Positions 24,901 to 42,480 of a stretch of 46,457 nucleotides of DNA are shown piece after piece. The DNA comes from a bacterium (lineage in GTDB: Bacteria > Sysuimicrobiota > Sysuimicrobiia > Sysuimicrobiales > Humicultoraceae). The notes under the pieces are model-generated. The model ran no database searches, was not told where the DNA came from, and saw only the letters and a list, made by a program, of their open reading frames with translations. Where the stretch lies: positions 1-46,457 of the forward strand of contig JBGQGY010000012.1 of assembly GCA_041497675.1 (NCBI GenBank), in the 5' to 3' direction. The position numbers and the translations under genes are program-made. Within the stretch, counting starts at the first letter, position 1. Each line of letters begins with the position of its first letter.

Positions 24901-24902
24901 CA

Positions 24903-26079: not shown

Positions 26080-26754
26080 ATGCGACCCTTCGACAACGTC
26101 ACGCTGAGCCAGCGGGTGCGCGATCACCTGCGCGACGAGATCCTGTCCAACCGTCTCTCGCCTGGGACCCACCTGCAGGAAGAGGTCGTCGCCGAACAGT
26201 TGGGCATCAGCCGCGCGCCGGTGCGCGAAGCATTGCGCCTGCTGGCGGCCGAAGATCTGGTGATGATCGCCCCGCGGCGTGGCGCGATCGTGAAGTCGCT
26301 CTCGCCGCTGGAGTTCCTGGCCGCGTACCAGGTGCGCGAGGCGTTGGAGATGCTGGCGATCCGGCTGGCCGTGCCCCGGTTCACCGCCGATGACTTCCAG
26401 TCGTTGCGCGCGCTGCACCGACAGATGACGACGCTGGCGGAACGCGGCGATATCGAAGGATTTTTCCAGGCCAATGGTGCCTTTCACGCCCTGATCATGG
26501 AACGCTCCGGCAATGACCGGCTGCGCGCCACCTACCGGCAGTTGATGAACGAGATGCGGCGCTACCGGATGCGCTCGCTGTCGCTGCGCGGCGGCATCGA
26601 ACGGTCGCTGACCGAGCACGCGGCCATCATCGACGCGGTGGAACGCCGCGATACTCAGGCGGCGGTGGGACTGCTCAGCGAGCATATCCAGGTGCCCCAG
26701 CGGATTCTTCAAACGTCGCCGGAAGAAGAGCTGGTCCAGGCGGGAGGACACTGA
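26080..26754 (+). CDS. GntR/FCD transcriptional regulator
   Basis: LGISRAPVREALR.L wHTH; FCD motifs N..FH, SGN..L, EH..I.DA, HI. Confidence 0.92.
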   Translation: MRPFDNVTLSQRVRDHLRDEILSNRLSPGTHLQEEVVAEQLGISRAPVREALRLLAAEDLVMIAPRRGAIVKSLSPLEFLAAYQVREALEMLAIRLAVPRFTADDFQSLRALHRQMTTLAERGDIEGFFQANGAFHALIMERSGNDRLRATYRQLMNEMRRYRMRSLSLRGGIERSLTEHAAIIDAVERRDTQAAVGLLSEHIQVPQRILQTSPEEELVQAGGH

Positions 26755-26756
26755 TC

Positions 26757-27794
26757 GTGACCCAGCCGGTGCCGCACTTCGGCGTGAACCTGAACAACCG
26801 CGAGCCGCTACTCTCGCCGCAGTACGACATTCCGGCGCTGCTCGATCTCTCGTCCGTGGCCGAAGAGGCGGGGTTCGAGTCGGTGTGGGTGGGGGACAGC
26901 CTGTTCTCGAAGCCCCGCTACGAACCCATCTCGCTGCTCTCGGCGATCTCGCAACGTACGAAACGTGTGCGGCTGGGAACGGCGTGTCTGGTCTCGGCGA
27001 CGCGCAACCCGCTCTATCTGGCGTTGGAATGGGCGACGCTGGACGTGATCTCCGGCGGTCGCACCATCCTGGGCGCCTGCATGGGCAACCCCGAAGAAGG
27101 CGTGCGGCGTGAGTACCGCGCGCTGGGGCTGGACTTCAACAAGCGCGCGGCGATCTTCGAGGAAGGGCTGCACGTGCTGCGCGCGCTGTGGACCGAGGGG
27201 CGCGTGGATGTCCGCGGGCGCTTCTTCGAGTACGACAACATCAGTTTCTCGTCCGGGGTCGAGATGGGGCCGCTGATGCCCATCCAGCAACCACCGCCGA
27301 TCTGGATCGTCAGCAACCCGCGTCTGATCCGCGGCGTCGAAGAAGAGACGGTCGCGCGCGTCATCGATCGCTCGGCGGCCCGCATCGTCCGATACGGCGA
27401 CGGGTGGATGACCTGCTGCCGGGCGCGTCATCCGGTAGAACTCTCCGACCAACTGGCGCACATCCACGACGCGGCGCGCGCGGCGGGCCGGCACCCATCG
27501 GAGATCACGGTGGCCTACCAGGTCACCATGAACATCGCCGATAGCGAGGCCGAAGCCCAGCGCGGGATCAATGAGTACATCACGCAGTACTACCCAGAGC
27601 TCAGCAAAGCGGTCGACCTCAGCGAGTGGGGGCCCGTGGGCACACCCGACCAGATCGGCCGGTGGATCGCCGAGTTCGCCCAGGCGGGCGTCACGTACTT
27701 CATCTGCAGGTTTGGCGCGCTCGACCAGTTTGGCCAGGTGACACGGTTTGCCAGGGACGTGCTGCCCAGGTTCGCGGCTGCGGGCCTGCGCTAA
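26757..27794 (+). CDS. LLM-class oxidoreductase
   Basis: VWVGDSLFSKPRYE, RVRLGT, WATLDVISGGR, PPIWIVSNP, YGDGW. Confidence 0.9.
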   Translation: MTQPVPHFGVNLNNREPLLSPQYDIPALLDLSSVAEEAGFESVWVGDSLFSKPRYEPISLLSAISQRTKRVRLGTACLVSATRNPLYLALEWATLDVISGGRTILGACMGNPEEGVRREYRALGLDFNKRAAIFEEGLHVLRALWTEGRVDVRGRFFEYDNISFSSGVEMGPLMPIQQPPPIWIVSNPRLIRGVEEETVARVIDRSAARIVRYGDGWMTCCRARHPVELSDQLAHIHDAARAAGRHPSEITVAYQVTMNIADSEAEAQRGINEYITQYYPELSKAVDLSEWGPVGTPDQIGRWIAEFAQAGVTYFICRFGALDQFGQVTRFARDVLPRFAAAGLR

Positions 27795-27809
27795 CAGGAG
27801 GGATGGGGG

Positions 27810-28817
27810 ATGGCGGTATCGACATCGACGTTGCGGCGCGACGCCGACCTTGTGGTGGGCACCTGCATGTCCGTCGAGAAGGGCGACGTCGTCACGATCA
27901 TTACCGATGATGCGCACGTAGGCGAAGCCGGCGCGCTGGCCGCGTCTGTGCTGGGGCACGGCGGGGTTCCCGTCATCATGAACAACGAGGCGCAGGTGCA
28001 GCGCGGGATGCAGGACATGCGATTCCCGATGGCGCCGCCGCGCAACCTGCACCAGGCGATGATTTCATCGGATGAAATCATCATCATCACCAACCTCGAG
28101 TGGGCGAACCGCTTCGCCCACGTGTCCGCCGTGAAAGAGTCGTGCGCGAACATGGCCAAGATCGCCTCGGTCGAAGAAGGCATCGGAACCTGGAGCCTCA
28201 CCGAGCAGGATATCCAGGTCGCCACGCAGCGGGCGCGTGACGCCATCAAAGCGATGTCCGGGGCCACGCGGTGCCGGGTGACGTCCGCCAAGGGCACTGA
28301 CGTCACGGTGTGCATCGACGGCCGGCCGGCGCTCGAAGTCACGCCGATCAAACACCGCGGTCAAATGATGGGCCCGGTGCCGTTGTGGGCCGAGGTGGCG
28401 TTTGCCGCGGTGGAGGATCAGACGGCGGGCCGCGTGGTGGTCGACGGCGTCATGCTGGGCGTGGGGCTGAAGGGGCAGGTGAAGGAGCAGATCGTCTGGA
28501 CGATCAAGGACGGGCGCGCGGTTTCGATCGAAGGCGGCGCTGAAGCCAAACGATTGAAGGAAGTCATCAGCGGCGTGGACGGGGCCGACGTGATCGGCGA
28601 GTTTGCGTTTGGCACGTCCACCAAGTCGCCGTTCGGGTCGCCGTCGGAAAAGGGGCGGTTGGGGACGGTCCACTTCGCGCTGGGTGACAATCACAACGCC
28701 TATCCGGGCGGCAAGAACGTGAGCACGCTCCACCTGGACGGCAACATCCTCGACGCGACGCTGCAGGTTCTCGACACGGGCCAGTACATCGTGAAGGATG
28801 GTAAGTGGGCGCTGTGA
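27810..28817 (+). CDS. M29/aminopeptidase T-like metalloenzyme (NicX-related fold)
   Basis: VTSAKGTD, AEV, G..VVDG, IGEFAFG, EK..GTVHFALGDN...GG.....HLD. Confidence 0.75.
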   Translation: MAVSTSTLRRDADLVVGTCMSVEKGDVVTIITDDAHVGEAGALAASVLGHGGVPVIMNNEAQVQRGMQDMRFPMAPPRNLHQAMISSDEIIIITNLEWANRFAHVSAVKESCANMAKIASVEEGIGTWSLTEQDIQVATQRARDAIKAMSGATRCRVTSAKGTDVTVCIDGRPALEVTPIKHRGQMMGPVPLWAEVAFAAVEDQTAGRVVVDGVMLGVGLKGQVKEQIVWTIKDGRAVSIEGGAEAKRLKEVISGVDGADVIGEFAFGTSTKSPFGSPSEKGRLGTVHFALGDNHNAYPGGKNVSTLHLDGNILDATLQVLDTGQYIVKDGKWAL

Positions 28818-29986
28818 GCGGGATGAACTGGCCATACCTCACGATGGCCTCTGGGCCGGGCGACGTTACCGATCGGACGCTGCGCGACCAGGTCCGGCAG
28901 GTTACCTATCATTATGATCCTAAGTTCATCGAGCTGTTTTCCCGGGCCACGGATCTGGCCAAATCGGTCTTTCGGACGAGCAACGACGTGGTCATCATGC
29001 AGGGGGAAGTTGTGCTGGGCATGGAGGCCGCCGTCGCCTCGTTGATCTCCCCCGGCGATCGCGTCCTTGCGCTGGTCTCGGGCATCTACGGCCGATCGTT
29101 CCAGGCGCTCTGCGAGCGATTTGGGGCCGAGGTGATCCCGCTGGAAGTGCCGCCGAACGAGGTTGTGGATCCCGATGCGGTCCGTGCGGCGTTCCGCCGG
29201 TATCCGAACGTCCGATTCCTGACCGTGGTGCATAGCGAGATGCCATCTGGCACGCTCAACCCGGTCGAGTACATTTGCCCAATCGCCCGCGAGTTCGGCG
29301 CGATCTCCATCGTGGATGCCTCCGCGGGGCTCGGCGGCGAGCCCTTCCAGACCGACGACTGGGCGGTCGATGTGGCCATCGCCGGACCGCAAAAGTGTCT
29401 CGGCGGCGTGCCGGGGCTCGCGCTGCTGGCAGTCAGCCCCGCCGCCTGGGACGCGATGGACCGGCGCACCCCACCGCTACGAGACAGCTACCTCTCTGTC
29501 TTGGATTGGCGGGAGAGCTGGATTCGCAAGCGGCGGTTTCCGTACACGATCTCGATTAGTCTGATCTACGCGCTGGAATCGGTGCTGTCGCAGGCCATGG
29601 AGGCCGGGCTGGATCGGTGCGTCGCGAGACATGCCGCGATCGGCCGCGCCTGCCGGGCCGGCGTGCGGGCGCTTGGGTTCGCGCTGTGGCCGGCGCGTGA
29701 CGAGATCATGGCGTCAGCCGTGACGGTGCTCCGCGCGCCGGAAGGGTTTCCGGAGGCCGAGGTGCGGCGGGAGATGCGCGAGCGCTACGGGGTCATGGTC
29801 GCCGGAGGCCTGGGTGAGTTCGCGGGCAAGCAGATCCGGCTCGGACACATGGCGGTTGGCGCGCACCCCACACACCTCGCTGCCCAGCTGGCGGTCTTCG
29901 AACGCAGCCTGGCAAATCTCGGGATCCACGTGCCGCCCGGCGCCGGGGTGGGCGCGGCCATGGCCACGCTGGGCGACTGGCAGTAG
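28814..29986 (+). CDS. pyridoxamine--pyruvate transaminase-like class V aminotransferase
   Basis: YHYDPKF, QGEVVLGMEAAVASLISP, PSGTLNP, IVDA, GPQKCLG, DW...W....FPYT, RYGV...G.GE..GK..RLGHM; colinear with the Mesorhizobium loti PPAT sequence as recalled. Confidence 0.8.
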   Translation: MSGMNWPYLTMASGPGDVTDRTLRDQVRQVTYHYDPKFIELFSRATDLAKSVFRTSNDVVIMQGEVVLGMEAAVASLISPGDRVLALVSGIYGRSFQALCERFGAEVIPLEVPPNEVVDPDAVRAAFRRYPNVRFLTVVHSEMPSGTLNPVEYICPIAREFGAISIVDASAGLGGEPFQTDDWAVDVAIAGPQKCLGGVPGLALLAVSPAAWDAMDRRTPPLRDSYLSVLDWRESWIRKRRFPYTISISLIYALESVLSQAMEAGLDRCVARHAAIGRACRAGVRALGFALWPARDEIMASAVTVLRAPEGFPEAEVRREMRERYGVMVAGGLGEFAGKQIRLGHMAVGAHPTHLAAQLAVFERSLANLGIHVPPGAGVGAAMATLGDWQ

Positions 29987-30014
29987 TGACAAGCCCGAGG
30001 GGCGGGGGTACGTG

Positions 30015-30965
30015 ATGAACGGAGATGCAATCCGCACGGTGGCGTTGATCGGCGCGGGTACGATGGGGCCGGGCATGGCGGCGGTGTTTGCCGGTCACGG
30101 CTTCGAGGTCCGGCTGGCCGACGTCAAACCCGACGTGCTCGAACGGGCCAAGACGACGATCGAGACGGTCTACGCGACGCTGAGCAGCGGCGGGATGCTG
30201 ACGCCGGACGCCGTCGAGGCCGCGAGACCGCGCGTGCGCTTCACGCTCGACGTGGCGGAGGCCGTGCGCGGCGCCGAGTTCGTCGTGGAGGCGATCCCCG
30301 AGCGGCTCGATCTCAAACAGCGTCTGTTCGCCGAGATCGAGCCACAGGTCGCCGCCGAGACGATCCTGGCCTCGAACACCTCGGGCATCCCGATCACCGG
30401 GCTCGGCAAGGCGGTCAAGCGACCCGAGCGCGTGGTCGGCATGCACTGGTCGAACCCGCCGCACCTGATCCCGGTGATCGAGGTCATCCGCGGCGATCGC
30501 ACGAGCCAGGCGGCCGTGGAGGCCACCCGCCGCGTCGTCGAACGTCTAGAGATGGTCCCGGTGCTCGTGCGGCGCGACGTGCCGGGGTTTGTCGAGAACC
30601 GCATCCTCTACGCCATCATGCGCGAGGCGCTGCATCTGCTCGAAGAGGGCATCGCCAGCGCCGAAGATATCGACACGATTGCCAAGTGGGGCATCGGATA
30701 CAAACTGGCGGTCATCGGCCCGCTCGAGTTGCTCGACGTGGCCGGTCTCGACATCTATCAGAGTGTGGCCTCGTATTTGAACGCCGATCTGTCGAGCCGC
30801 GCCGACGTCAGCCCCATGATTGTTCGCAAGGTGGGGGCGGGCGAGTTAGGGGTCAAGACAGGCAGGGGGATGTACGATTACCGCCCGGAAGAGATCGCCC
30901 CGCTGATGCAGCGGCGCATGAGACTCCTGCTGGCGGCGCGGAAGGCGCTCTCGGCCCCGGCGTGA
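30015..30965 (+). CDS. 5-formyl-3-hydroxy-2-methylpyridine-4-carboxylate (FHMPC) dehydrogenase-like, 3-hydroxyacyl-CoA dehydrogenase family
   Basis: GTMGPGMAA, TSGIPIT, VGMHWSNPPH.IP.IEVI, DVPGFVENR.LYA, WGIGYK.AVIGP, AGLDIY.SV.S.LNADLS.R.DV.PM; closely matches the recalled M. loti enzyme. Confidence 0.85.
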   Translation: MNGDAIRTVALIGAGTMGPGMAAVFAGHGFEVRLADVKPDVLERAKTTIETVYATLSSGGMLTPDAVEAARPRVRFTLDVAEAVRGAEFVVEAIPERLDLKQRLFAEIEPQVAAETILASNTSGIPITGLGKAVKRPERVVGMHWSNPPHLIPVIEVIRGDRTSQAAVEATRRVVERLEMVPVLVRRDVPGFVENRILYAIMREALHLLEEGIASAEDIDTIAKWGIGYKLAVIGPLELLDVAGLDIYQSVASYLNADLSSRADVSPMIVRKVGAGELGVKTGRGMYDYRPEEIAPLMQRRMRLLLAARKALSAPA

Positions 30966-31696: not shown

Positions 31697-32187
31697 GTCG
31701 CTCGTCGATGCGCATTGTGCTGACAGTGAACGGGCGGCCGGTCGAGGCCGACATCGAGCCTCGCGAGGTGCTGCTGGACTTCGTCCGCGATCGGCTCGGG
31801 CTGACCGGCGCCAAGCGGTCGTGTGACATGCAGGTGTGCGGCGCGTGTACCGTGCTGCTCGACGGGCTGCCGATCAGCGCCTGTTGCACGCTGGCCTACG
31901 AGGCGCGCGGCCGCGAGGTACTGACGATCGAAGGGCTGACATCGGACGGGCGTCTGCATCCGCTGCAGGAGGCTTTCGTCGATCACGCCGCGGTGCAGTG
32001 TGGCTTTTGCACGCCCGGCATGATCCTGACCGCGCTGGTCCTGCTGCGCGAGACGCCGACACCCGATGCGGGTCACGTCAAGGCGCACATGAACGGTACG
32101 CTGTGCCGGTGCACGGGGTACTGGAAGATCATCGACGCCGTCGTCGACGCGGGTCGGCGTCTGCGCGCGTCCGGAGCGGACCGGTGA
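31693..32187 (+). CDS. molybdo-hydroxylase 2x[2Fe-2S] small subunit (CoxS/XdhA-like)
   Basis: CDMQVCGACTV...C, TIEGL, QCGFCTPG, LCRCTGY. Confidence 0.93.
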   Translation: MSRSSMRIVLTVNGRPVEADIEPREVLLDFVRDRLGLTGAKRSCDMQVCGACTVLLDGLPISACCTLAYEARGREVLTIEGLTSDGRLHPLQEAFVDHAAVQCGFCTPGMILTALVLLRETPTPDAGHVKAHMNGTLCRCTGYWKIIDAVVDAGRRLRASGADR

Positions 32188-34445: not shown

Positions 34446-35194
34446 TGGGCGTCCGCGCCGTGCTCTTCGATTTCCACGAGACGCTGATCTCGGCGGATCG
34501 CTGGATGGTGTTGGAGACGCGCGGCATCGCGACGGAAGTCCTACAGGCGATTGGTGTGTGGAACGGCGGCATGCCCGAGCCCGCCCGGGCCCGAGCAGAA
34601 GAGGCGCACGCGCGCCTGCGCGCGATCAGCCGTGACACGGGCATCGAGTACAGCGCCCCCGAGATCGCCCGGATCGTCCTTGCCGAGCTTGGGCTTGATG
34701 GGCAATATGGCGCCGCGGCGGTCGATGCGGCGGTCGAGACGCTGTTCCGCTCGTATCTCCCCGACGTGCAGTTGAAGCCGTCGGTCGCCGAAGGGCTCGA
34801 CGGTCTGGCCCGCGCCGGGTACCGGATGGGCATCGTCTCAAACGCCACGTACGGGTCTTTTATCGCGTGGGCGCTGGAGGCCCTGGGTGTCGGCGGACAC
34901 TTCGAGCACATCACCGTGTCGGCCGACGTAGGGTTGCGCAAACCGCGTCGCGAGATCTTCGACGCGGCGCTCGCCGCGATGGGTCTGCCCGCCGCCGAAG
35001 CCGTCTACGTGGGCAACGACTACCTCAAGGATGTTGTCGGCGCCAAGCTGGCAGGTCTACGCGCCATATGGCTTCCTGATCCCGGCGCGCGAGACGACCG
35101 TCCGTACACCCGGTGGCACCCCGACGCCGTCGCGGACCAGATGGCGGCGCTCCCCGGCATCATCGCGCCGTGGCGCGCGGGGAGGGTGTCGTGA
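34445..35194 (+). CDS. HAD-superfamily hydrolase (phosphatase-like)
   Basis: LFDFHETL, IVSN, RKP...IF, YVGNDYLKDVVGA...G. Confidence 0.85.
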   Translation: MGVRAVLFDFHETLISADRWMVLETRGIATEVLQAIGVWNGGMPEPARARAEEAHARLRAISRDTGIEYSAPEIARIVLAELGLDGQYGAAAVDAAVETLFRSYLPDVQLKPSVAEGLDGLARAGYRMGIVSNATYGSFIAWALEALGVGGHFEHITVSADVGLRKPRREIFDAALAAMGLPAAEAVYVGNDYLKDVVGAKLAGLRAIWLPDPGARDDRPYTRWHPDAVADQMAALPGIIAPWRAGRVS

Positions 35195-37479
35195 GCGGCG
35201 ATCTGCAGCGCCTGCTGACCGGGGGCGGGACGTTTGTGGACGATATCCGTCTTCCCGGGATGCTGTACGCGGTATTTGCGCGCAGCCCGCACGCGCACGC
35301 CCGCATCATCGGCATCGACTCCCGCGAGGCCCTCACCGCGCCCGGTGTCGTCGCGGCGATCACGGCGCACGACCTTGGATCGTTGAACGGGCCGCTCCCG
35401 GTGCGGTTTGTGCACCCGGGGCTGCGCCGCCCGCAGATGCCTCGCCTGCTCGCTGATGCGACCGTGCGTCACGTAGGAGAGCCGGTGGCCCTCGTGCTCG
35501 CGGACGGCCGGTACGAGGCGGCGGATGCGGCCGCCGTGCTGGGTGTCGACTACGAGCCACTCGCGGTCGCCGCGACGGTGGAGCAGGCTAGGAGCCCCGG
35601 CGCGCCGTTGGTGCACGACGAGGCGCCCGGCAACGTGGCCGGGATCTATCGCTGGCGGGTCGGCAATCCCGACGACGCGTTCCTGAACGCGCCCGTCCGC
35701 CTGTCCGTCAAGTTGCAGATCAGCAGGGGCGCGGCGGTTCCCATCGAGACGCGCGGCTGTGTCGCGTCTTACGACCCGGCGACCAACACGCTCACGATGT
35801 GGGCCTCAACGCAGAGCCCACACTATCTGCAACGCATCATCGCCAGACGGCTGGGGCTACCGGAGCGCCTCGTGCGGGTCATTGCCCCCGACGTCGGTGG
35901 CGCATTCGGCGTGAAAGGCGGCGCGCCGCGCGAATACGTGCTGATCGCGTGCCTGGCCGTGCGCACGGGGCGGCCGGTCAAGTGGGTCGAAGGGCGGCAG
36001 GAGAACTTTGTCGCCTGCCAGCAGGACCGCGAGCAGACGCACCACGTCGATGTGGCGGCGACGCGCGACGGACGGCTGCTGGCCTTCCGCGATCGCTTCG
36101 CGATCGACATCGGTGCGTATGCCCTGTACGGTTCGTTGATCGGCTTTCACACGACCGCGCACCTCATCGGGCCCTACCGCCTGGCCAGCCTCGACGTGCA
36201 GTTTGAGGCCGTCCACACGCATCGCGTGCCGACCGGCGCGTATCGCGGGGCGGGGCGCCCCCAGGGGACGTTCGTGATCGAACGCGCGGTGGATCAGCTG
36301 GCACACGTGGTCGATCTCGATCCCGCAACCGTAAGGGAGCGAAACCTGATCCCGCCGTCGGCGATGCCGTGGCGCACCGGTCTGCGGCAGCCGGACGGCC
36401 GGTTGGTGGAGTATGACAGCGGCGACTACCCGCGCGTGCTCGAGGTCGCGCTCGACCGCTTCGGGTACGCGTCGTGGCGCGCCGAGCAGCGGCGCCGGCG
36501 GTTGCAGGCCACCGAACCGCTGTTGGGTCTTGGGCTCGCGATGTACGTGCAGGAGACTGCCGCCCACGGCTCCGAGACCGTGACACTGCGGATGGAGCCA
36601 ACCGGCCGCGTCGTGATGACCGCCGGGCCACCATCACAGGGCCAGCGACTGGTGCCGGTGCTGTCGCGCGTGATCGGTCGCGAACTGGCCATTCCCGCCG
36701 GATGGGTCGATATCGCGACCGGTGATACGGCGGCGATGCCGGAGAGTTTCGGCACGCACGGCAGCCGTGTGGCCACCGTCATCGGCAACGCGGCGACCCA
36801 GGCCGCGCGCGATCTGGCGGCCCGCCTGCGCGCGCTGGCGGCGGAGGCGATCGCCTGCCGTCCCGATGACATCGTGCTGCGCGATGGGCGCACGGTGCGA
36901 CGCGACGATCCCCGCACGGGTTTCGGCTACGCGGAGTTGCTCGAGCGGCTGGCACGAACCGGAGCGTCCGGCAGCCTCGAGGTGAGCGCGGGCTTTGAAC
37001 CCGAGGGCGCCGCCTGGTCCAGCGGCGCGCACCTCGTGGCGCTCGAGATCGATCGGGACACCGGAGACGTCCGTCTGCTCCGGTACCTGGTCGTCCATGA
37101 CTCGGGGGCCGTGCTCGATGAAGACGCGGTCCGTGGACAGATTCTTGGCGGTCTCGCTCAGGGTCTCGGAGGCTCGCTCTACGAACGCCTGATCTGGGAC
37201 GAGGCGGCGCAGCCGATTGTCACGACGCTCGCAGATTACGCGGTGCCGCGGGCGGCACAACTACCCCCGGTTGAGATCATCCGCATCGAGACGCCCTCGC
37301 CGCACAACCCTTTGGGACTCAAGGGCGCCGGCGAGAGCGGGTGCATGGCGGCCTACGCGGCGTTAGCGTCGGCCGTCGAGGATGCGCTCGACACCGCCCG
37401 TCCTTCCGTGACGACCCTACCGCTGCCCTCGCCGCAGATCTGGGCGCTGATGCAATCATCGCCACAAAGGAGGTCGTGA
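35191..37479 (+). CDS. xanthine oxidase family molybdopterin-binding large subunit 2 (CoxL form II-like)
   Basis: RLLTG.G.FVDD, RSPHAHA, ETRG, STQ.PH, DVGGAFGVK, AYRGAGRP, YDSGDY, GG.AQG.G, NPLGLKGAGESG. Confidence 0.9.
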   Translation: MSGDLQRLLTGGGTFVDDIRLPGMLYAVFARSPHAHARIIGIDSREALTAPGVVAAITAHDLGSLNGPLPVRFVHPGLRRPQMPRLLADATVRHVGEPVALVLADGRYEAADAAAVLGVDYEPLAVAATVEQARSPGAPLVHDEAPGNVAGIYRWRVGNPDDAFLNAPVRLSVKLQISRGAAVPIETRGCVASYDPATNTLTMWASTQSPHYLQRIIARRLGLPERLVRVIAPDVGGAFGVKGGAPREYVLIACLAVRTGRPVKWVEGRQENFVACQQDREQTHHVDVAATRDGRLLAFRDRFAIDIGAYALYGSLIGFHTTAHLIGPYRLASLDVQFEAVHTHRVPTGAYRGAGRPQGTFVIERAVDQLAHVVDLDPATVRERNLIPPSAMPWRTGLRQPDGRLVEYDSGDYPRVLEVALDRFGYASWRAEQRRRRLQATEPLLGLGLAMYVQETAAHGSETVTLRMEPTGRVVMTAGPPSQGQRLVPVLSRVIGRELAIPAGWVDIATGDTAAMPESFGTHGSRVATVIGNAATQAARDLAARLRALAAEAIACRPDDIVLRDGRTVRRDDPRTGFGYAELLERLARTGASGSLEVSAGFEPEGAAWSSGAHLVALEIDRDTGDVRLLRYLVVHDSGAVLDEDAVRGQILGGLAQGLGGSLYERLIWDEAAQPIVTTLADYAVPRAAQLPPVEIIRIETPSPHNPLGLKGAGESGCMAAYAALASAVEDALDTARPSVTTLPLPSPQIWALMQSSPQRRS

Positions 37480-37481
37480 AA

Positions 37482-38723
37482 ATGGCCCAAACGCTGCAAC
37501 CGGTGCGTGCCGGGCGACGCCGCTGGCCGGAGGGCATCGACGTCAAAGTCTGGCACCGCTACTGTGGGAGCGAGTTTGGCATCGAAGAGGTGCAGGCGCT
37601 CCTCGATGTCCTCCAACAAGAGTTTCTCACCAACGGGCCGCAGACCCTGGCGTTTCAAGAAGAGTTCGCCGACTTCTGCGGTGTGCCGCACGCGTTCGCG
37701 ACGTCCAGTTGCACGACGGCGCTGGCGCTCGGCGCGCAGTTATGCGGGCTGGGCCCCGGCGACGAAGTGGTCACGACGCCGCTGACGTTCATCTCCACGA
37801 GCCAGGCCGTGCTCGCCTGCGGGGCGACACCGATCTTCGCCGACGTGGACCCGCTGACGTTCAACATCGACCCGGCCAGCGTCGCCGAGAAGATCACGCT
37901 TCGAACCAAAGCGATTTTCGTCGTCCACCTGAACGGCCAATGCTGCGATATGGATCGGATCAACGCGATCGCGTCTTCCCGCGACCTGCGCGTCGTGGCC
38001 GACGCGGCGCACGTGGTGGGCGCCACGTACAAGGGCCGGCCGTCAGGCTCGCTGGGCGACGCGGCGGCGTTCAGCTTTCACTCGAGCAAGAACATGACCA
38101 CGCTCGGCGAGGGCGGCATGCTGACGACGCCGCGCGACGATTGGGCCGCAAAGGTGCCGCCCCTGCGGTCGATGGGCGTGATGCACACGCTCGACGAGCC
38201 GCGTCCAGATCCTCTCGACTACTGGCTGCCGCTCCCCTACGAGGTGGACGACCCCGACGGGTACATCCCTGACAACTATCGGATGAGCGAAGCGCAGGCG
38301 GCGGTCGGCCGCGTGCAGCTGCGCAAGGTGGCGCGTCCGAACGCGAGGCGGAGAGCCATCGCCCACCGATACACCGAGGCCCTGCAGAATCTCGACGGGA
38401 TCGTGCCGCCGTATGAGGACCCCAACGGGCAGCACGTCTACTACCTCTACAGCCTGCTGGTGGACGAAGTGGTAGCCGGAGTGTCGCGCGACGACCTGAT
38501 GCGCACGCTGTTCCGCGACTTCGGCGTCCAGACGATTACGGGATATCCGCCTGCCTACTGGTTCAAGACCTATCGCAAGCGCGGGTACAGTCGCGGGCTC
38601 TGCCCGGTGGCTGAGCGTGTCTATGGTCAGATCATGACGCTGCCGCTGAACCCGCGGATGACCGACGACGAGGTCGACTATGTCATCGAGAGTACGCGGA
38701 AAGCCGTCACCAAACTCCGGTAA
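37482..38723 (+). CDS. DegT/DnrJ/EryC1/StrS family PLP aminotransferase
   Basis: SSCTTAL, GDEVVTTP.TF, DAAH, FSFHSSKNMTTLGEGG, NYRMSE.QAA, LPL.P; SD AGGAGG. Confidence 0.9.
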   Translation: MAQTLQPVRAGRRRWPEGIDVKVWHRYCGSEFGIEEVQALLDVLQQEFLTNGPQTLAFQEEFADFCGVPHAFATSSCTTALALGAQLCGLGPGDEVVTTPLTFISTSQAVLACGATPIFADVDPLTFNIDPASVAEKITLRTKAIFVVHLNGQCCDMDRINAIASSRDLRVVADAAHVVGATYKGRPSGSLGDAAAFSFHSSKNMTTLGEGGMLTTPRDDWAAKVPPLRSMGVMHTLDEPRPDPLDYWLPLPYEVDDPDGYIPDNYRMSEAQAAVGRVQLRKVARPNARRRAIAHRYTEALQNLDGIVPPYEDPNGQHVYYLYSLLVDEVVAGVSRDDLMRTLFRDFGVQTITGYPPAYWFKTYRKRGYSRGLCPVAERVYGQIMTLPLNPRMTDDEVDYVIESTRKAVTKLR

Positions 38724-38741
38724 CACGACGCCGGTGGCGCT

Positions 38742-39725
38742 ATGAGGCCGGGCAAGGTCACGCCCGCGGCACTGCGGGGGCGGATCTTCCCGCACCTGGG
38801 CCGCCGCGCCGATGTGCTCGTCCACGCCACGGTCGGTCAAGACTGCGCGGTGCTGGACTTCGGACCGACCGTGTGCGTCGCCACGTGCGACCCGATCACC
38901 GGGGCGGGCGAGCACGTGGGGCGCCTCGCCGTACACATTGCCTGCAACGACCTGGCCACGACGGGGGCCGAACCGGTTGGGTTGCTGCTCACGCTGCTGC
39001 TGGCGGAGGAGACGGCGGAAGCCGACCTGGACCGCATCATGCGGGAGGCCGGTGAAGCCGCCCAACGCGTCGGCGTCGAGATCGTCGGCGGACACACGGA
39101 GGTGACGGCGGGGATCCACCGATCGATCGTCGTCACCGCAGCCATCGGCCGCGCACCGAAGGACGCGTACGTGTCTGCCGCCGGCGGCCGGCCCGGCCAC
39201 GCGCTCGTGCTGACCAAGGGGGCCGGCATCGAAGGCACCGCGATCCTGGCCGCCGATCTGGCCGACCGTCTGCGCCCGACCGTGGACGACGCCACGCTGA
39301 CCCGGGCGCGGGCGTTCATCGACCGGATCAGCGTCGTTCCCGAAGGGCGGATCGGCGCACGGTGCGGCGCGACGGCGATGCACGATGTCACCGAAGGCGG
39401 CGTGGTGACGGGCGTGTGGGAACTGGCAGAGGCGTCCGGTTGTGGCGTCCATCTCGACGCGGACGCCGTGCCGGTCGCGCCGGAGACGCACTCGATCTGC
39501 GCGGTGCTTGGCGTGGACCCGCTGGCACTGATCAGCAGCGGGGCGATGCTCATCGCCACACCCGATCCCGGCCCGCTACAGGCCGAACTCCGGCAGGCGG
39601 GAATTCCTTCAGCGGTGATCGGCGCGCTGACGAACGGCGAGCGGGTCATGGTCCGGCAGGGCCGGACGTCGGCGTTGGTCCCACCCGATCGCGACGAGCT
39701 CTGGAGAGTGTTGGAAGGCGGTTGA
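38742..39725 (+). CDS. AIR synthase family protein (HypE/ThiL/PurM-like)
   Basis: GK, GQDCA, DPITG, NDLAT.GA.P, GGHTE, TKG.GIEGT, AMHDVTEGG, ISSG, DELW. Confidence 0.88.
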   Translation: MRPGKVTPAALRGRIFPHLGRRADVLVHATVGQDCAVLDFGPTVCVATCDPITGAGEHVGRLAVHIACNDLATTGAEPVGLLLTLLLAEETAEADLDRIMREAGEAAQRVGVEIVGGHTEVTAGIHRSIVVTAAIGRAPKDAYVSAAGGRPGHALVLTKGAGIEGTAILAADLADRLRPTVDDATLTRARAFIDRISVVPEGRIGARCGATAMHDVTEGGVVTGVWELAEASGCGVHLDADAVPVAPETHSICAVLGVDPLALISSGAMLIATPDPGPLQAELRQAGIPSAVIGALTNGERVMVRQGRTSALVPPDRDELWRVLEGG

Positions 39726-41353: not shown

Positions 41354-41389
41354 TTCGCTCCCCTTCGAATGTTGACGGAGGATTTGAAC

Positions 41390-42466: not shown

Positions 42467-42480
42467 CGCGACCGGTCGTC

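What the first reader, a model, noticed from the sequence alone, without database searches (positions are those of the whole stretch)
26080..39725. Candidate new vitamin B6 (pyridoxamine) degradation pathway using molybdo-hydroxylase and LLM enzymes
Seen: a tightly coupled run of GntR, LLM, M29-like, PPAT-like aminotransferase, FHMPC dehydrogenase-like, class II aldolase, 2Fe-2S subunit, Mo subunit, HAD, Mo subunit, DegT and AIRS-family genes. Known: M. loti pathway I uses pyridoxamine-pyruvate transaminase, FHMPC dehydrogenase and a class II aldolase-fold HMPD decarboxylase, plus GMC-type pyridoxine oxidase and pyridoxate dehydrogenase, an SDR pyridoxal dehydrogenase, a lactonase, the flavoprotein MHPCO and an alpha/beta hydrolase. 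The first three have counterparts here in a row and none of the others do. Animal Mo aldehyde oxidase converts pyridoxal directly to 4-pyridoxate. Inference: HAD dephosphorylates PMP/PLP, PPAT makes pyridoxal, the Mo enzyme gives 4-pyridoxate without the lactone and/or hydroxylates the ring, and LLM plus M29/M24/M20 enzymes replace MHPCO and the amide hydrolase.
Basis: partly seen in the sequence, partly recalled or inferred. Interest (0 to 1): 0.85.

Follow-up and report, generated by a model that had tools for sequence, protein, structure and literature searches.

The report
Molybdenum-linked vitamin B6 breakdown operon
This is a tightly packed bacterial operon that most likely breaks down vitamin B6, pairing three enzymes like those of the known pathway with molybdenum enzymes and metal hydrolases in place of the known later steps.

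Summary
Twelve co-directional, mostly overlapping genes of the named families lie at 26080-39725. They sit inside a longer + strand run, 19092-42466.

The vitamin B6 reading is supported by comparative genomics. I fetched 80 loci that encode the same aminotransferase clade. Of these, 32 also carry the FHMPC-dehydrogenase-like gene and 19 carry the MoA-type molybdenum subunit. In Thermomicrobiales, Bipolaricaulia and other loci the same block also holds genes whose best NCBIfam models are 4-pyridoxolactonase, SDR pyridoxal 4-dehydrogenase and a "putative B6 ABC transporter" binding protein.

The aminotransferase keeps Lys197 and Glu68 of M. loti PPAT. Its clade is sister to the one that holds the most canonical PPAT representative.

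The window's lineage lacks the SDR and lactonase genes. It has a HAD-fold gene plus a second, form-II-CoxL-like molybdenum subunit instead. This swap is seen in 4 of 4 sources without the lactonase and 0 of 16 with it.

- The HAD lacks the phosphatase Asp+2.
- The "M29-like" protein belongs to Pfam's NicX family but keeps peptidase-type ligands.
- The aldolase-fold protein is not a close HMPDC-decarboxylase orthologue.

Step assignments after HMPDC are inferred. I rate it a new variant of a known pathway.

The parts
19092..20855 (+). Family-5 (Opp/Dpp-type) solute-binding protein; first gene of the co-directional run. The start is uncertain (an ATG lies at 19185).
   Evidence: Pfam SBP_bac_5, E 4.5e-75; start candidates.
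20716..22676 (+). Two ABC permease genes (20716-21840 and 21681-22676). No ATPase gene was seen among the window ORFs I scanned.
   Evidence: Pfam BPD_transp_1; NCBIfam Opp4C-like, 310 bits, below cutoff.
22673..23698 (+). LLM1, a luciferase-like oxidoreductase. Its best models are F420-dependent LLM subfamilies.
   Evidence: Pfam Bac_luciferase, E 1.1e-42; TIGR03619, 159.7 bits against a cutoff of 166.9; 81% identical orthologue in L063.
23695..24900 (+). M24 (creatinase/prolidase-fold) metallohydrolase. Its ATG overlaps the LLM1 stop.
   Evidence: Pfam Peptidase_M24 plus Creatinase_N; weak matches to PepQ and the ectoine hydrolase DoeA; start; orthologues in L063 (85%) and L065 (75%).
24891..26078 (+). 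M20 amidohydrolase, a candidate N-acyl deacylase.
   Evidence: TIGR01891 'amidohydrolases', 158.1 bits against a cutoff of 153.75, so it passes; Pfam M20_dimer and Peptidase_M20; orthologues in L063 and L065.
26080..26754 (+). GntR/FCD-family transcription regulator.
   Evidence: Pfam GntR plus FCD; orthologues directly upstream of LLM2 or PPAT in L001, L015, L063 and L065.
26757..27794 (+). LLM2, a luciferase-like oxidoreductase. An F420 cofactor is suspected but not shown.
   Evidence: Pfam Bac_luciferase, E 3.4e-47; TIGR03619, 139 bits, below cutoff. Best solved relatives are mostly F420 enzymes such as Mer, FGD and fHMAD, at 43-55 bits. It sits next to the M29-like gene in L001, L006, L008 and L063 (in L065 a DegT gene lies between them); F420 biosynthesis genes follow the cluster in L008.
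27810..28817 (+). M29-like / NicX-family (PF26233) metalloprotein of 335 aa. It is predicted to be a metal hydrolase rather than a NicX-type dioxygenase.
   Evidence: - Pfam Peptidase_M29, E 1.2e-10.
- All 120 listed homologues carry PF26233, most with PF02073 as well; Pfam names PF26233 'NicX'.
- Profile search against PDB: top hit NicX 7cn3, E 1e-4.
- AF2 model, pLDDT 88.2; top Foldseek hit NicX, TM 0.75/0.72.
- Invariant E195, E264, H288, Y298, H308 and D310 match the order of the M29 'EEHYHD' set (PMC7023490, passages).
- The NicX ligands His and Ser are not kept.
28823..29986 (+). PPAT-like class-V aminotransferase (ORF open from 28805). Glu68, Tyr95, Lys197 and Arg345 are kept; Arg336 is replaced by Leu.
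   Evidence: PDB top hit 2z9u, 296 bits; NF046070, 363.7 bits against a cutoff of 600. The window clade (15 rows, support 100) is sister (support 90) to the clade that holds P0252.
30015..30965 (+). FHMPC-dehydrogenase-like NAD enzyme of the 3-hydroxyacyl-CoA dehydrogenase fold.
   Evidence: NF042925, 404 bits against a cutoff of 500; the next model scores 249. PDB top hit 4om8, 330 bits; the next scores 194. The residues aligned to Ser116, His137 and Glu149 of 4om8 are kept.
30962..31696 (+). Class II aldolase-fold metalloenzyme with the His triad kept. It is a candidate HMPDC decarboxylase, assigned from context only.
   Evidence: Pfam Aldolase_II. PDB hits: pyruvic oxime dioxygenases 8ix6/8iqa/8il8 at 94-98 bits, Mlr6791 (2z7b) at 72.7 bits. 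It lies next to the Mo genes or FHMPCDH in 10 of 80 loci. A fusion with a cupin domain exists, P0443.
31693..32187 (+). [2Fe-2S] small subunit of a xanthine-oxidase-family Mo enzyme. It is the only such subunit in the window.
   Evidence: Pfam Fer2_2 plus Fer2; orthologues in 13 of 80 loci.
32184..34445 (+). MoA, a molybdopterin-binding large subunit. This Mo subunit is found in the B6-type clusters of every lineage seen.
   Evidence: Pfam Ald_Xan_dh_C, MoCoBD_1 and MoCoBD_2. PDB top hit is 4-hydroxybenzoyl-CoA reductase alpha (1rm6, 347 bits), followed by CoxL, 6-hydroxypseudooxynicotine dehydrogenase, quinoline 2-oxidoreductase and nicotinate dehydrogenase. Found in 19 of 80 loci at 61-84% identity.
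34445..35194 (+). HAD-fold hydrolase with an atypical motif I (D-F-H-E-T).
   Evidence: Pfam Hydrolase/HAD_2. The four orthologues aligned have D-x-H or D-x-N. AF2 model pLDDT 90.7; nearest folds are haloacid dehalogenases, cis-epoxysuccinate hydrolase and NANP. It occurs only with a second Mo subunit.
35191..37479 (+). MoB, a second Mo large subunit of the form-II CoxL-like type (AYRGAGR motif).
   Evidence: Pfam. NCBIfam CODH_aero_grp5, 627.8 bits against a cutoff of 950; glyceraldehyde dehydrogenase alpha, 536.8 bits against 790. Motif found. Orthologues in L063 and L065 only.
37482..38723 (+). DegT/DnrJ/EryC1-family aminotransferase; role unknown.
   Evidence: Pfam, E 2.5e-107; best NCBIfam model PseC, 273.7 bits against a cutoff of 423.5; orthologues in L015, L063 and L065.
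38742..39725 (+). AIR-synthase-related (PurM-superfamily) protein; role unknown.
   Evidence: Pfam AIRS plus AIRS_C; HypE and ThiL models score below cutoff; next to or near the PPAT-like gene in 6 of 80 loci; nearest Atlas clusters are unnamed 'AIR synthase family'.
39782..42466 (+). Two solute-binding proteins: a family-5 protein with a signal peptide (39782-41353) and a PhnS/thiamine-type protein (41369-42466). These are the last genes of the run.
   Evidence: Pfam SBP_bac_5 and SBP_bac_6/8/1; start and signal peptide; orthologues in L003, L015 (SBP5b) and L065 (PhnS-type). Housekeeping genes follow: a SpoIIIAA-like ATPase, tmk and holB.

Best explanation
The region is the core of a catabolic operon (about 19.1-42.5 kb) for vitamin B6 vitamers (pyridoxamine and pyridoxal). 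It comes from a bacterium of the Sysuimicrobiota/CSP1-3 type, a group often labelled Armatimonadota in public records. It belongs to a conserved, undescribed family of B6 clusters in which a xanthine-oxidase-family Mo enzyme (MoA with its FeS subunit, plus FAD and CoxG subunits in relatives) is a constant member.

Proposed route. Every step is inferred; no activity was tested.
1. An ABC system with periplasmic binding proteins takes up the vitamer.
2. The PPAT-like, PLP-phosphate-excluding transaminase converts pyridoxamine to pyridoxal.
3. In most relatives an SDR and a metallo-beta-lactamase-fold lactonase make 4-pyridoxate via the lactone. In this lineage the form-II-CoxL-like MoB, together with the atypical HAD hydrolase, does that job.
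4. The FHMPCDH-like NAD enzyme yields the 4,5-dicarboxylate.
5. The aldolase-fold enzyme removes one carboxylate.
6. MoA hydroxylates the only free ring carbon next to N (C6), using water. This takes the place of the O2-dependent flavoprotein MHPCO.
7. LLM2 (probably F420-dependent) and the M29-like, M24 and M20 metal hydrolases reduce, open and deacylate the ring.
For: **B6 link of the two anchor enzymes**
- PDB top hits are M. loti PPAT and FHMPC dehydrogenase, far ahead of the next hits: 296 against 157 bits and 330 against 194 bits.
- Their best NCBIfam models are the two B6 equivalogs.
- Glu68 and Lys197 are kept in the window protein and all 13 locus proteins aligned.
- In an 83-row tree, Glu68 separates PPAT-like proteins from ordinary class-V transaminases with one change. 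The window clade is sister (support 90) to the clade containing P0252, which scores 578.6 of the 600 bits needed for the PPAT equivalog.

**Context in the 80 related loci**
- FHMPCDH-like gene in 32, SDR next to PPAT in 29, lactonase-like gene in 18, MoA in 19, BMP-type binding protein in 50. These are lower bounds because many contigs are short.
- Best NCBIfam models of those neighbours are 4-pyridoxolactonase (273 and 302 bits, cutoff 325), SDR pyridoxal 4-dehydrogenase (218 and 206 bits, cutoff 325) and the putative B6 ABC transporter binding protein (324 bits, cutoff 400).
- The top PDB hit of the L075 lactonase-like protein is 4-pyridoxolactonase 3aj3, 202 bits against 109 for AiiA.

**Mo link**
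- MoA is found with the B6 genes in three gene orders and in several phyla: Thermomicrobiales/Chloroflexota, Caldilineaceae, Bipolaricaulia and Sysuimicrobiota-type.
- In L075 MoA overlaps the lactonase-like gene by 4 nt.

**Swap of SDR and lactonase for HAD and a second Mo subunit**
- Of 20 sources with MoA and PPAT, 16 have the lactonase-like gene, and 0 of those 16 have the HAD or a second Mo subunit.
- The 4 without the lactonase (window, L063, L065, L023) all have both.

**Lower pathway**
- LLM2, the M29-like gene and a cupin are contiguous with aldolase and MoA in L008 (L005 is cut off before LLM2), and with PPAT in L006 and L063 (L065 has a DegT gene between LLM2 and M29).
- An aldolase-cupin fusion exists.
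- The M29 'EEHYHD' residues are kept (PMC7023490, passages).
- M20 passes the amidohydrolase subfamily cutoff.
- F420 biosynthesis genes adjoin the cluster in L008.

**Literature**
- Four full-text searches found no description of a Mo enzyme in bacterial B6 catabolism.
Against: - No enzyme activity is known for any protein of these clades.
- PPAT-like and FHMPCDH-like proteins fall below the curated equivalog cutoffs: 363.7 of 600 and 404 of 500 bits.
- PPAT's Arg336 is replaced, so the co-substrate, or even the substrate, may differ.
- The aldolase-fold protein is nearer to Fe dioxygenases (94-98 bits) than to Mlr6791 (72.7 bits).
- Xanthine-oxidase-family enzymes are not known to oxidise alcohols. 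The canonical 4-pyridoxate dehydrogenase step therefore has no obvious catalyst, unless the FHMPCDH-like enzyme does both oxidations.
- MoA's nearest solved relative is a reductive dehydroxylase, 4-hydroxybenzoyl-CoA reductase, not a ring hydroxylase.
- The window has one FeS gene for two Mo subunits and no FAD-subunit, CoxG or cupin gene, all of which relatives have.
- The second Mo subunit in L023 is XdhA-like, not a MoB orthologue. The swap therefore rests on about two independent lineages.
- 48 of the 80 PPAT-like loci have none of the other window genes by tblastn at E 1e-8. Many of them have only a BMP-type binding-protein gene beside PPAT, so the transaminase alone does not prove catabolism.
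- A GMC oxidoreductase lies 5-6 kb downstream in L075 and L080 and could supply canonical steps there.
Confidence: 0.62

Rival explanations
1. The cluster is the same B6 operon, but MoA is not a ring hydroxylase. Instead it replaces the missing membrane GMC enzyme, 4-pyridoxate dehydrogenase, oxidising the 5-hydroxymethyl or 5-formyl group. The ring-opening genes are then LLM2 (as an oxygenase) and the hydrolases, or lie elsewhere in the genome.
For: In Thermomicrobiales-type loci every upper-pathway enzyme has a homologue except 4-pyridoxate dehydrogenase. MoA with its FAD and FeS subunits is the only conserved extra oxidoreductase there. Those loci lack the LLM2 and M29-like genes within 10 kb.
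Against: From recalled family knowledge, xanthine-oxidase-family enzymes hydroxylate sp2 carbons (heterocycles, aldehydes), not alcohols. The FHMPCDH-like enzyme already covers the aldehyde oxidation. MoA always lies next to the aldolase-fold gene, whose product would be the decarboxylated ring.
Confidence: 0.25
2. The operon degrades a different substituted aminomethyl- or hydroxymethyl-heteroaromatic compound, such as another pyridine or pyrimidine natural product, using paralogues of the B6 enzymes.
For: All B6-type matches fall below the curated equivalog cutoffs. Arg336 of PPAT is not kept. The window's transporter is Opp-type with an added PhnS/thiamine-type binding protein, not the BMP type of other loci. 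The unexplained DegT, AIRS and HAD genes are also present.
Against: In related loci, five different neighbours each have a B6-pathway model as their single best hit: PPAT, SDR pyridoxal dehydrogenase, 4-pyridoxolactonase, FHMPC dehydrogenase and the B6 binding protein. Glu68 is kept; from recall, it excludes the phosphate of PLP in M. loti PPAT. The window's genes are orthologous to those loci at 54-86% identity.
Confidence: 0.12
3. Two unrelated pathways merely lie side by side: a short B6 interconversion or salvage module (PPAT, dehydrogenase, transporter) and a separate N-heterocycle or aldehyde oxidation module (Mo enzymes, LLM, hydrolases).
For: 48 of 80 loci have PPAT-like without any other window gene by tblastn, and many of these have only a BMP-type binding-protein gene beside it, which suggests a salvage role. 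Mo hydroxylase operons are common in catabolic islands.
Against: The Mo genes stay linked to the B6 genes through at least three rearrangements in different phyla. They are interleaved with them: MoA lies between the aldolase and lactonase genes in L075, and CoxG-FAD-FeS follows FHMPCDH directly in L008. Overlapping start and stop codons in the window point to co-translation.
Confidence: 0.08
4. The M29-like protein is a NicX-type Fe(II) dioxygenase. After Mo-dependent hydroxylation, it cleaves a 2,5-dihydroxypyridine-type intermediate, giving an aerobic, nicotinate-like lower pathway.
For: The best solved structure by profile and by fold is NicX. Its homologues carry Pfam PF26233 'NicX'. Hydroxylation at C6 would put the two ring hydroxyls para to each other, as in 2,5-dihydroxypyridine (chemistry, inferred). 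A true NicX-type gene lies beside a PGAP-named PPAT on a Rhizobium daejeonense plasmid.
Against: In the alignment with that NicX, the NicX ligand His aligns with Glu264 of the window protein. The stretch holding the NicX ligand Ser aligns with Gly292-Asp293. The window protein also keeps E195, H288 and Y298, which NicX lacks. This is the M29 hydrolase set (PMC7910607 and PMC7023490, passages). Identity to NicX is only 16%.
Confidence: 0.25

Closest known systems
Vitamin B6 degradation pathway I of Mesorhizobium loti MAFF303099 / Pseudomonas sp. MA-1 (enzyme list recalled; structures 2z9u, 4om8, 2z7b, 3aj3 and 3ndr seen as PDB hits)
   Same: It has a PLP-independent-type pyridoxamine transaminase, an FHMPC-dehydrogenase-type NAD enzyme and a class II aldolase-fold enzyme in a row. 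Relatives also have SDR pyridoxal-dehydrogenase-like and 4-pyridoxolactonase-like genes and a BMP-type 'B6' binding protein.
   Different: None of the five loci annotated in full nor the window has a MHPCO-type flavoprotein or an alpha/beta-fold AAMS hydrolase; a GMC oxidoreductase was seen only in L075, about 5 kb downstream of the cluster. A xanthine-oxidase-family Mo enzyme is a constant member instead. In the window's lineage the SDR and lactonase are also replaced, by a HAD and a second Mo subunit. All homologues fall below the equivalog cutoffs.
Nicotinate catabolism: the aerobic nic cluster of Pseudomonas putida (Mo hydroxylase NicAB, then the NicX dioxygenase and amidases) and the anaerobic Eubacterium barkeri route (Mo nicotinate dehydrogenase, ring reductase, enamidase). 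The outline of both is recalled; NicX details come from PMC7910607 passages.
   Same: The logic proposed here is the same: water-derived hydroxylation next to the ring N by a Mo enzyme, followed by ring opening by a NicX-family or metal-amidohydrolase protein and deacylation by amidases. MoA's solved relatives include nicotinate dehydrogenase 3hrd and quinoline 2-oxidoreductase 1t3q.
   Different: The substrate ring is the fully substituted B6 ring. The NicX-family protein keeps peptidase-type ligands. A luciferase-like (probably F420) enzyme stands where the E. barkeri route uses a ferredoxin-dependent reductase. None of this has been tested.
Animal aldehyde oxidase / insect pyridoxal oxidase (Mo enzymes that oxidise pyridoxal to 4-pyridoxate; recalled)
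   Same: The proposed role of MoB is direct oxidation of pyridoxal to 4-pyridoxate without the lactone. The support is that the SDR and lactonase genes are absent wherever the HAD and a second Mo subunit are present.
   Different: MoB is a separate bacterial large subunit of the form-II CoxL-like type (AYRGAGR motif). The window has no FAD subunit. MoB is only distantly related to eukaryotic aldehyde oxidases (120 bits to TIGR02969).
Unnamed cluster on Rhizobium daejeonense plasmid NZ_CP048425.1 (L081)
   Same: It has a PGAP-named pyridoxamine--pyruvate transaminase (40% identical to the window's), an SDR, a lactonase-family protein, a GntR regulator and a BMP ABC transporter, beside a NicX-family gene and amidases.
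   Different: It uses a true-type NicX, an HpaB-like two-component oxygenase with a flavin reductase, and a GMC oxidoreductase. It has no Mo enzyme, no FHMPCDH-like or aldolase-fold homologue and no LLM.

Membership tests
Pyridoxamine--pyruvate transaminase (EC 2.6.1.30; NCBIfam NF046070) | Score at or above the curated equivalog cutoff (600 bits) | tested here: not met
   363.7 bits; it is still the best model, with the next (BhcA) at 192 bits. Relatives in B6-type loci score 351-453 bits.
Pyridoxamine--pyruvate transaminase (EC 2.6.1.30; NCBIfam NF046070) | Schiff-base Lys197, and Glu68 in place of the Ser/Thr-Gly phosphate-binding motif (role of Glu68 recalled from the M. loti structure paper, which is not held) | tested here: met
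   Lys197 and Glu68 are present in the window protein and all 13 locus proteins aligned. In the 83-row tree, 36 rows have Glu68 and 47 do not, with one change on the tree.
Pyridoxamine--pyruvate transaminase (EC 2.6.1.30; NCBIfam NF046070) | Arg336 and Arg345 binding the carboxylate of the amino or keto acid (recalled) | tested here: not met
   Arg345 is kept. Position 336 is Leu in the window and Tyr in the 13 locus proteins; Arg is seen there only in P0252, P0255, P0273 and P0293.
FHMPC dehydrogenase (EC 1.2.1.100; NCBIfam NF042925) | Score at or above the curated equivalog cutoff (500 bits) | tested here: not met
   404 bits, the best model; the next scores 248.6. L075 and L008 orthologues score 415 and 380 bits.
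FHMPC dehydrogenase (EC 1.2.1.100; NCBIfam NF042925) | Closest solved relative is 4om8, with Ser116, His137 and Glu149 kept | tested here: met
   4om8 scores 330 bits against 194 for the next hit. The three positions are conserved in the printed alignment. Their roles are recalled.
HMPDC 4-decarboxylase (Mlr6791, class II aldolase fold) | Closest characterised relative is Mlr6791 | tested here: not met
   Mlr6791 (2z7b) is the fourth PDB hit at 72.7 bits. Pyruvic oxime dioxygenases score 94-98 bits. JGI gives its homologues only generic aldolase names. The fold and the metal His triad are present.
M. loti-type pathway I as a whole | SDR pyridoxal 4-dehydrogenase and metallo-beta-lactamase-fold 4-pyridoxolactonase present | tested here: not met
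   tblastn with the locus homologues found no hit in the window. They are present in relatives: the SDR in 29 of 80 loci and the lactonase-like gene in 18 of 80.
M. loti-type pathway I as a whole | GMC oxidases, the MHPCO flavoprotein and the alpha/beta-fold AAMS hydrolase present | tested here: not met
   No such Pfam families were found among the window ORFs scanned. The L075 GMC protein has no window hit. The rest of the genome is not available.
NicX, 2,5-dihydroxypyridine 5,6-dioxygenase (Pfam PF26233) | Fold and family membership | tested here: met
   All 120 listed homologues carry PF26233, which Pfam names NicX. NicX is the top hit by profile (E 1e-4), by fold (TM 0.75/0.72) and by hhalign (93.7% probability). 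The local Pfam copy lacks PF26233, so the window protein itself was not scored against it.
NicX, 2,5-dihydroxypyridine 5,6-dioxygenase (Pfam PF26233) | Fe(II) ligands His265, Ser302, His318 and Asp320 (PMC7910607, passages) | tested here: not met
   Only the His-x-Asp pair is kept (H308, D310). The first His aligns with Glu264, and the stretch holding the Ser aligns with Gly292-Asp293 (MAFFT alignment with the R. daejeonense NicX). An alignment at 16% identity is uncertain.
Peptidase family M29 | Conserved catalytic residues E-E-H-Y-H-D (PMC7023490, passages) | tested here: met
   E195, E264, H288, Y298, H308 and D310 are invariant, and in that order, in 28 sequences. The Pfam M29 match covers only residues 140-320. 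The protein is about 75 aa shorter than M29 aminopeptidases.
Xanthine-oxidase-family Mo hydroxylase (three-subunit bacterial type) | Large Mo subunit plus [2Fe-2S] subunit plus FAD (CoxM-like) subunit | tested here: inconclusive
   The window has two large subunits and one FeS subunit but no FAD-subunit gene. FAD subunits are present in 13 of 80 loci, including L006 and L063. One may be encoded elsewhere in the genome.
   Motif I reads D-F-H-E-T in the window. The orthologues have D-x-H (L063, L065) or D-x-N (L023). Nearest folds include haloacid dehalogenases and cis-epoxysuccinate hydrolase.
F420-dependent LLM oxidoreductases | Score above a curated F420-LLM subfamily cutoff, or the F420 pathway present in the genome | tested here: inconclusive
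   LLM2 scores 139 bits and LLM1 159.7 bits to TIGR03619, cutoff 166.9. Nearest solved relatives are mostly F420 enzymes, at low scores. cofG/H-like and cofD genes adjoin the cluster in L008 only.

The most novel reading that the evidence does not exclude
The operon encodes an oxygenase-free way to destroy the vitamin B6 ring. A molybdenum hydroxylase adds oxygen from water at C6. A luciferase-like F420H2-dependent enzyme reduces the resulting pyridone. A NicX-family protein that has kept M29 hydrolase chemistry (with M24 and M20 helpers) opens and deacylates the ring hydrolytically. This would be a B6 counterpart of the anaerobic nicotinate fermentation route. It would be widespread in uncultured Sysuimicrobiota, Chloroflexota and Bipolaricaulia, and it would give first functions to the short NicX-like 'aminopeptidases' and to a form-II CoxL-like enzyme (as a pyridoxal oxidase).
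Probability: 0.2. Interest if true: 0.85.

Novelty: new variant of a known kind. Interest (0 to 1): 0.66.

Why it matters
Only two bacterial routes for vitamin B6 breakdown have been worked out (recalled), both in aerobic soil isolates and both relying on flavin oxygenases for ring opening. These clusters suggest a third solution built on molybdenum hydroxylases and metal hydrolases. It is carried by abundant but uncultured or little-studied phyla: Sysuimicrobiota/CSP1-3, Thermomicrobiales, Caldilineaceae and Bipolaricaulia.

If confirmed, it would:
- assign functions to several large families of unknown role: form-II CoxL-like Mo subunits, the short NicX/M29-like proteins, an aldolase-fold clade, and a HAD clade with Asp-x-His;
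- widen the known chemistry of the PLP-independent transaminase family;
- matter for vitamin cycling in soils, hot springs and sediments.

The proposal can be tested directly with recombinant enzymes and commercially available B6 vitamers.

Tried and rejected
- **M29-like protein against PDB.** phmmer with the whole protein found nothing, and neither did its C-terminal 85 residues. Only the profile, the fold search and hhalign reached NicX.
- **M29-like protein as a NicX-type dioxygenase.** This was my working idea. I downgraded it after the alignment with a PGAP-named NicX showed that the NicX-specific ligands are not kept and the M29 'EEHYHD' set is.
- **L023's second Mo subunit as a MoB orthologue.** Rejected. 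Its best models are XdhA and 4-hydroxybenzoyl-CoA-reductase types, like MoA.
- **SDR of L030 against PDB.** Pyridoxal 4-dehydrogenase is only the fifth hit. NCBIfam does put the B6 SDR model first, but by a small margin.
- **Names for aldolase-fold homologues.** Only generic aldolase or epimerase names were found.
- **HAD fold search.** It did not separate phosphatase from dehalogenase-type relatives.
- **Promoter and terminator scans at both ends of the run.** Nothing usable: none at 42300-42700, and one weak terminator-like site inside the first ORF.
- **Papers.** The M. loti PPAT and HMPDC-decarboxylase structure papers are not held. A search for Glu68/Lys197 gave only unrelated papers. One search failed on term format and was re-sent.
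- **Rhodococcus plasmid homologue of the M29-like gene (L082).** It lies among enoyl-CoA hydratases, SDRs and an Opp-type transporter, which says nothing about B6.

Full report
**1. What is in the sequence**

The window has about 66% G+C. From 19092 to 42466 every credible gene lies on the + strand.

I refined several starts from junction sequences and homologue coverage:

| Gene | Start |
|---|---|
| M24 | 23695 |
| PPAT-like | 28823 |
| FHMPCDH-like | 30015 |
| HAD | 34445 |
| MoB | 35191 |
| DegT | 37482 |
| SBP5b | 39782 (signal peptide) |

Five junctions overlap by 4 nt: LLM1/M24, FHMPCDH/aldolase, aldolase/FeS, FeS/MoA and HAD/MoB. The other gaps are 1-28 nt, apart from about 56 nt before SBP5b.

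Upstream of GntR lie a family-5 binding protein, two permeases, a second LLM, an M24 and an M20 hydrolase. Downstream lie two more binding proteins. After these come housekeeping genes: a SpoIIIAA-like ATPase, tmk and holB.

**2. The two anchor enzymes**

The aminotransferase's best solved relative is M. loti PPAT (2z9u, 296 bits); the next hit scores 157 bits. The dehydrogenase's best solved relative is M. loti FHMPC dehydrogenase (4om8, 330 bits); the next hit scores 194 bits. The residues aligned to Ser116, His137 and Glu149 of 4om8 are kept.

Both have the B6 equivalog as their best NCBIfam model, but both score below the curated cutoff: 363.7 of 600 bits and 404 of 500 bits.

I searched 1.84 billion representative proteins with the aminotransferase and aligned 129 full-length representatives with the window protein and 13 locus proteins.
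- The window protein and all 13 locus proteins have Glu at position 68, followed by Ala, Thr or Val. Ordinary class-V transaminases have Ser/Thr-Gly there.
- From recall, in M. loti PPAT this Glu blocks the phosphate of PLP. The paper is not held.
- Lys197 and Arg345 are kept. Arg336 is Leu in the window and Tyr in the 13 locus proteins.

In an 83-row tree (quick IQ-TREE, LG+G4, SH-aLRT support):
- The 36 Glu68 rows fall on one side of a single branch (support 82). A core of 34 has support 98.
- The window's clade (15 rows, support 100) is sister (support 90) to a 13-row clade containing P0252.
- P0252 is the representative closest to the canonical enzyme, at 578.6 bits to NF046070.

I left out representatives shorter than 340 or longer than 430 residues, and three of every four representatives numbered above P0300.

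Verdict: these are PPAT-like and FHMPCDH-like proteins, sister to the characterised enzymes but not inside their curated families.

**3. Related loci**

A scan of one genome per species (genome contigs) with an alignment of the clade gave 353 confirmed matches. The best 80 were kept, with up to 10 kb on each side.

tblastn with the window's proteins, and with proteins taken from the loci themselves, gave these counts out of 80 loci:

| Gene | Loci |
|---|---|
| FHMPCDH-like | 32 |
| SDR next to PPAT | 29 (31 hits; two weak ones at 31-34% set aside) |
| Metallo-beta-lactamase-fold (lactonase-like) | 18 |
| MoA | 19 |
| FeS subunit | 13 |
| FAD subunit | 13 |
| Aldolase-fold | 10 |
| M29-like | 6 |
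| LLM2 | 5 |
| Cupin | 5 |
| AIRS | 6 |
| BMP/PnrA-type binding protein | 50 |

Many contigs are short or are cut at the 10-kb flank, so these are lower bounds.

My own ORF calls plus Pfam gave three recurring layouts:
- **Thermomicrobiales type (for example L075):** aldolase, FAD, FeS, MoA, lactonase-like, BMP-type ABC transporter, PPAT, SDR, FHMPCDH. MoA overlaps the lactonase-like gene by 4 nt.
- **L008 / L005 (Bipolaricaulia):** LLM2, M29-like, cupin, aldolase, MoA, ABC transporter, PPAT, SDR, lactonase-like, FHMPCDH, CoxG, FAD, FeS, M20. In L008 F420 biosynthesis genes follow directly. L005 is cut off before LLM2 and after the FAD subunit.
- **Window's type (L063, L065, L006, L001):** L063 carries every window gene from LLM1 to the start of AIRS in the same order, plus a cupin and an FAD subunit.

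NCBIfam's best models for the neighbours:
- 4-pyridoxolactonase: 273 and 302 bits, cutoff 325
- SDR-type pyridoxal 4-dehydrogenase: 218 and 206 bits, cutoff 325
- "putative B6 ABC transporter substrate-binding protein": 324 bits, cutoff 400

The L075 lactonase-like protein's top PDB hit is 4-pyridoxolactonase 3aj3, at 202 bits against 109 for AiiA.

Five different genes thus point independently at vitamin B6. The Mo genes are interleaved with them in several phyla.

**4. What differs in the window's lineage**

Twenty sources have both MoA and the PPAT-like gene (19 loci plus the window). Sixteen of them have the lactonase-like gene, and none of those 16 has a HAD or a second Mo large subunit in the stretch held. 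The four without the lactonase (window, L063, L065, L023) all have both.

Three caveats apply:
- Three of the four are close relatives.
- L023's second Mo subunit is XdhA-like, not a MoB orthologue.
- Only 10 kb on each side was examined.

MoB carries the AYRGAGR motif. From recall, this marks form-II CoxL-like proteins of unknown function. Its best models are CODH group 5 and archaeal glyceraldehyde dehydrogenase, both below cutoff.

- Motif I is Asp-x-His in three orthologues and Asp-x-Asn in L023. From recall, HAD phosphatases need a second Asp there.
- The nearest folds of a confident model (pLDDT 90.7) include haloacid dehalogenases and cis-epoxysuccinate hydrolase as well as phosphatases.
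- Because it occurs exactly where the lactonase is missing, it may act on the lactone or on another intermediate. This is inference.

The window also lacks the cupin, FAD-subunit and CoxG genes that its relatives L006 and L063 have. These may be lost or may lie elsewhere in the genome.

**5. The remaining proteins**

*MoA.* Its nearest solved relative is 4-hydroxybenzoyl-CoA reductase alpha (347 bits). Next come CoxL, 6-hydroxypseudooxynicotine dehydrogenase, quinoline 2-oxidoreductase and nicotinate dehydrogenase.

*Aldolase-fold protein.* It keeps the metal His triad. It scores higher against pyruvic oxime dioxygenases (8ix6, 8iqa, 8il8; identified from PMC11841055 passages) than against the M. 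loti decarboxylase Mlr6791: 94-98 against 72.7 bits. Its decarboxylase role therefore rests on position alone, next to FHMPCDH or the Mo genes. A natural fusion with a cupin domain exists (P0443).

*M29-like protein.* It belongs to the family Pfam now calls NicX (PF26233).
- NicX is its best solved match by profile (E 1e-4), by fold (TM 0.75/0.72, 16% identity) and by hhalign (93.7% probability).
- However, when aligned with a PGAP-named NicX from a Rhizobium daejeonense plasmid, the NicX ligand His aligns with Glu264, and the stretch holding the ligand Ser aligns with Gly292-Asp293. The NicX ligands are taken from PMC7910607 passages.
- The family's invariant E195, E264, H288, Y298, H308 and D310 reproduce, in order, the M29 catalytic set EEHYHD (PMC7023490, passages).
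- I therefore read it as a metal hydrolase with NicX-like architecture, not as a dioxygenase. At 16% identity this alignment is not secure.

*M20, LLM1 and LLM2.* M20 passes the amidohydrolase subfamily cutoff. LLM1 and LLM2 are nearest to F420-dependent subfamilies but score below cutoff.

*DegT and AIRS.* These stay unexplained. AIRS lies next to or near the PPAT-like gene in 6 of 80 loci.

**6. Mechanism I commit to**

Shown by sequence and context:
- a B6-type transaminase and dehydrogenase;
- conserved linkage to a Mo enzyme;
- a lineage-specific swap of SDR and lactonase for HAD and a second Mo subunit.

Inferred:
1. Pyridoxamine goes to pyridoxal (PPAT-like).
2. Pyridoxal goes to 4-pyridoxate (MoB, with or without the HAD).
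3. 4-Pyridoxate goes to the 4,5-dicarboxylate (FHMPCDH-like, possibly catalysing both oxidations).
4. One carboxylate is removed (aldolase-fold protein).
5. C6 is hydroxylated with water (MoA).
6. The ring is reduced, opened and deacylated (LLM2, M29-like, M24, M20).

The main rival on mechanism is that MoA stands in for the missing 4-pyridoxate dehydrogenase. The main rival on identity is a related but different substrate.

The carriers are described as likely facultative anaerobes (PMC11604079, passages). Candidatus Fervidifonticultor is placed in Sysuimicrobiota. Bipolaricaulia also carry the cluster (L005). This makes an oxygenase-free lower route attractive, but it is unproven.

**7. Novelty**

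Four full-text searches found nothing on a Mo enzyme in bacterial B6 catabolism. Of the papers listed, only the one 2026 preprint on B6 catabolites was opened, in passages, and it mentions no such cluster. NCBIfam already models the B6 transporter, lactonase and SDR, so curators know the upper pathway's neighbourhood.

I rate this a new variant of a known kind of pathway. The subscription literature and the closed metagenome collections remain unchecked.

Noticed in passing
window 38742-39725; L002, L003, L015, L023, L027, L063: An AIR-synthase-related (PurM-superfamily) gene lies next to or near the PPAT-like gene in 6 of 80 loci and in the window. In some loci only a transporter is nearby. 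It matches no curated family (HypE and ThiL models score below cutoff). It could be an unknown ATP-using step of B6 metabolism.
   Followed up: partly
L007, L010, L036 and others (50 of 80 loci): A BMP/PnrA-type binding protein lies just upstream of the PPAT-like gene. Its best NCBIfam model is 'putative B6 ABC transporter substrate-binding protein'. Many of these loci have no other pathway gene, which suggests the transaminase also serves vitamer uptake or salvage.
   Followed up: partly
P0443; cupin genes at L008:1576-1962, L065:9610-9984, and in L005, L006, L063: A natural fusion of the aldolase-fold protein with a Cupin_2 domain exists (389 aa, 66% identical to the window's aldolase). A free cupin gene sits between the M29-like and PPAT or aldolase genes in five loci. 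It is absent from the window and from L001.
   Followed up: partly
window 30962-32187 compared with L063:11829-13943 and L006:5579-7141: Relatives have an FAD (CoxM-like) subunit gene between the aldolase and FeS genes. In the window the aldolase stop overlaps the FeS start, so that gene is missing. The window has one FeS gene for two Mo large subunits.
   Followed up: partly
L008:17880-21160: Two radical-SAM genes, one of them carrying the CofH/MqnC C-terminal domain, and a CofD gene (F420 biosynthesis) follow the cluster about 1 kb after its last gene (M20). This fits an F420-dependent role for the luciferase-like enzymes.
   Followed up: no
L081 (Rhizobium daejeonense plasmid NZ_CP048425.1, 118845-149939): A PGAP-named pyridoxamine--pyruvate transaminase sits with lactonase-family, SDR, GntR and BMP ABC transporter genes. 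Beside these, on the opposite strand, lies a block with a true-type 2,5-dihydroxypyridine dioxygenase (NicX), an HpaB-like oxygenase, a flavin reductase, two amidases and a GMC oxidoreductase. There is no FHMPCDH or aldolase homologue. This looks like yet another undescribed B6-type cluster.
   Followed up: partly
window 34445-35194; L063, L065, L023 orthologues: This HAD-fold clade has Asp-x-His or Asp-x-Asn in motif I instead of the phosphatase Asp-x-Asp. It is always encoded beside or close to a xanthine-oxidase-family large subunit.
   Followed up: partly
L075:18196-21163; L080:14078-15685: A GMC oxidoreductase lies 5-6 kb downstream of the B6 genes in two Thermomicrobiales loci; in L075 a flavin amine oxidase follows it. 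No NCBIfam model matches at E 1e-25. These could be pyridoxine oxidase or pyridoxate dehydrogenase analogues.
   Followed up: no
window 6576-7553 (-): A third luciferase-like gene, 44% identical to LLM1, lies outside the operon on the opposite strand.
   Followed up: no
window 1796-4086, 7634-10584, 12881-15128: Unrelated neighbours: a CopD-cytochrome c fusion and CopC; a ZnuA/ABC/ABC-3 metal uptake system; an ANTAR response regulator with a GAF histidine kinase on the - strand; ferrochelatase at 11081-12229 (-).
   Followed up: no
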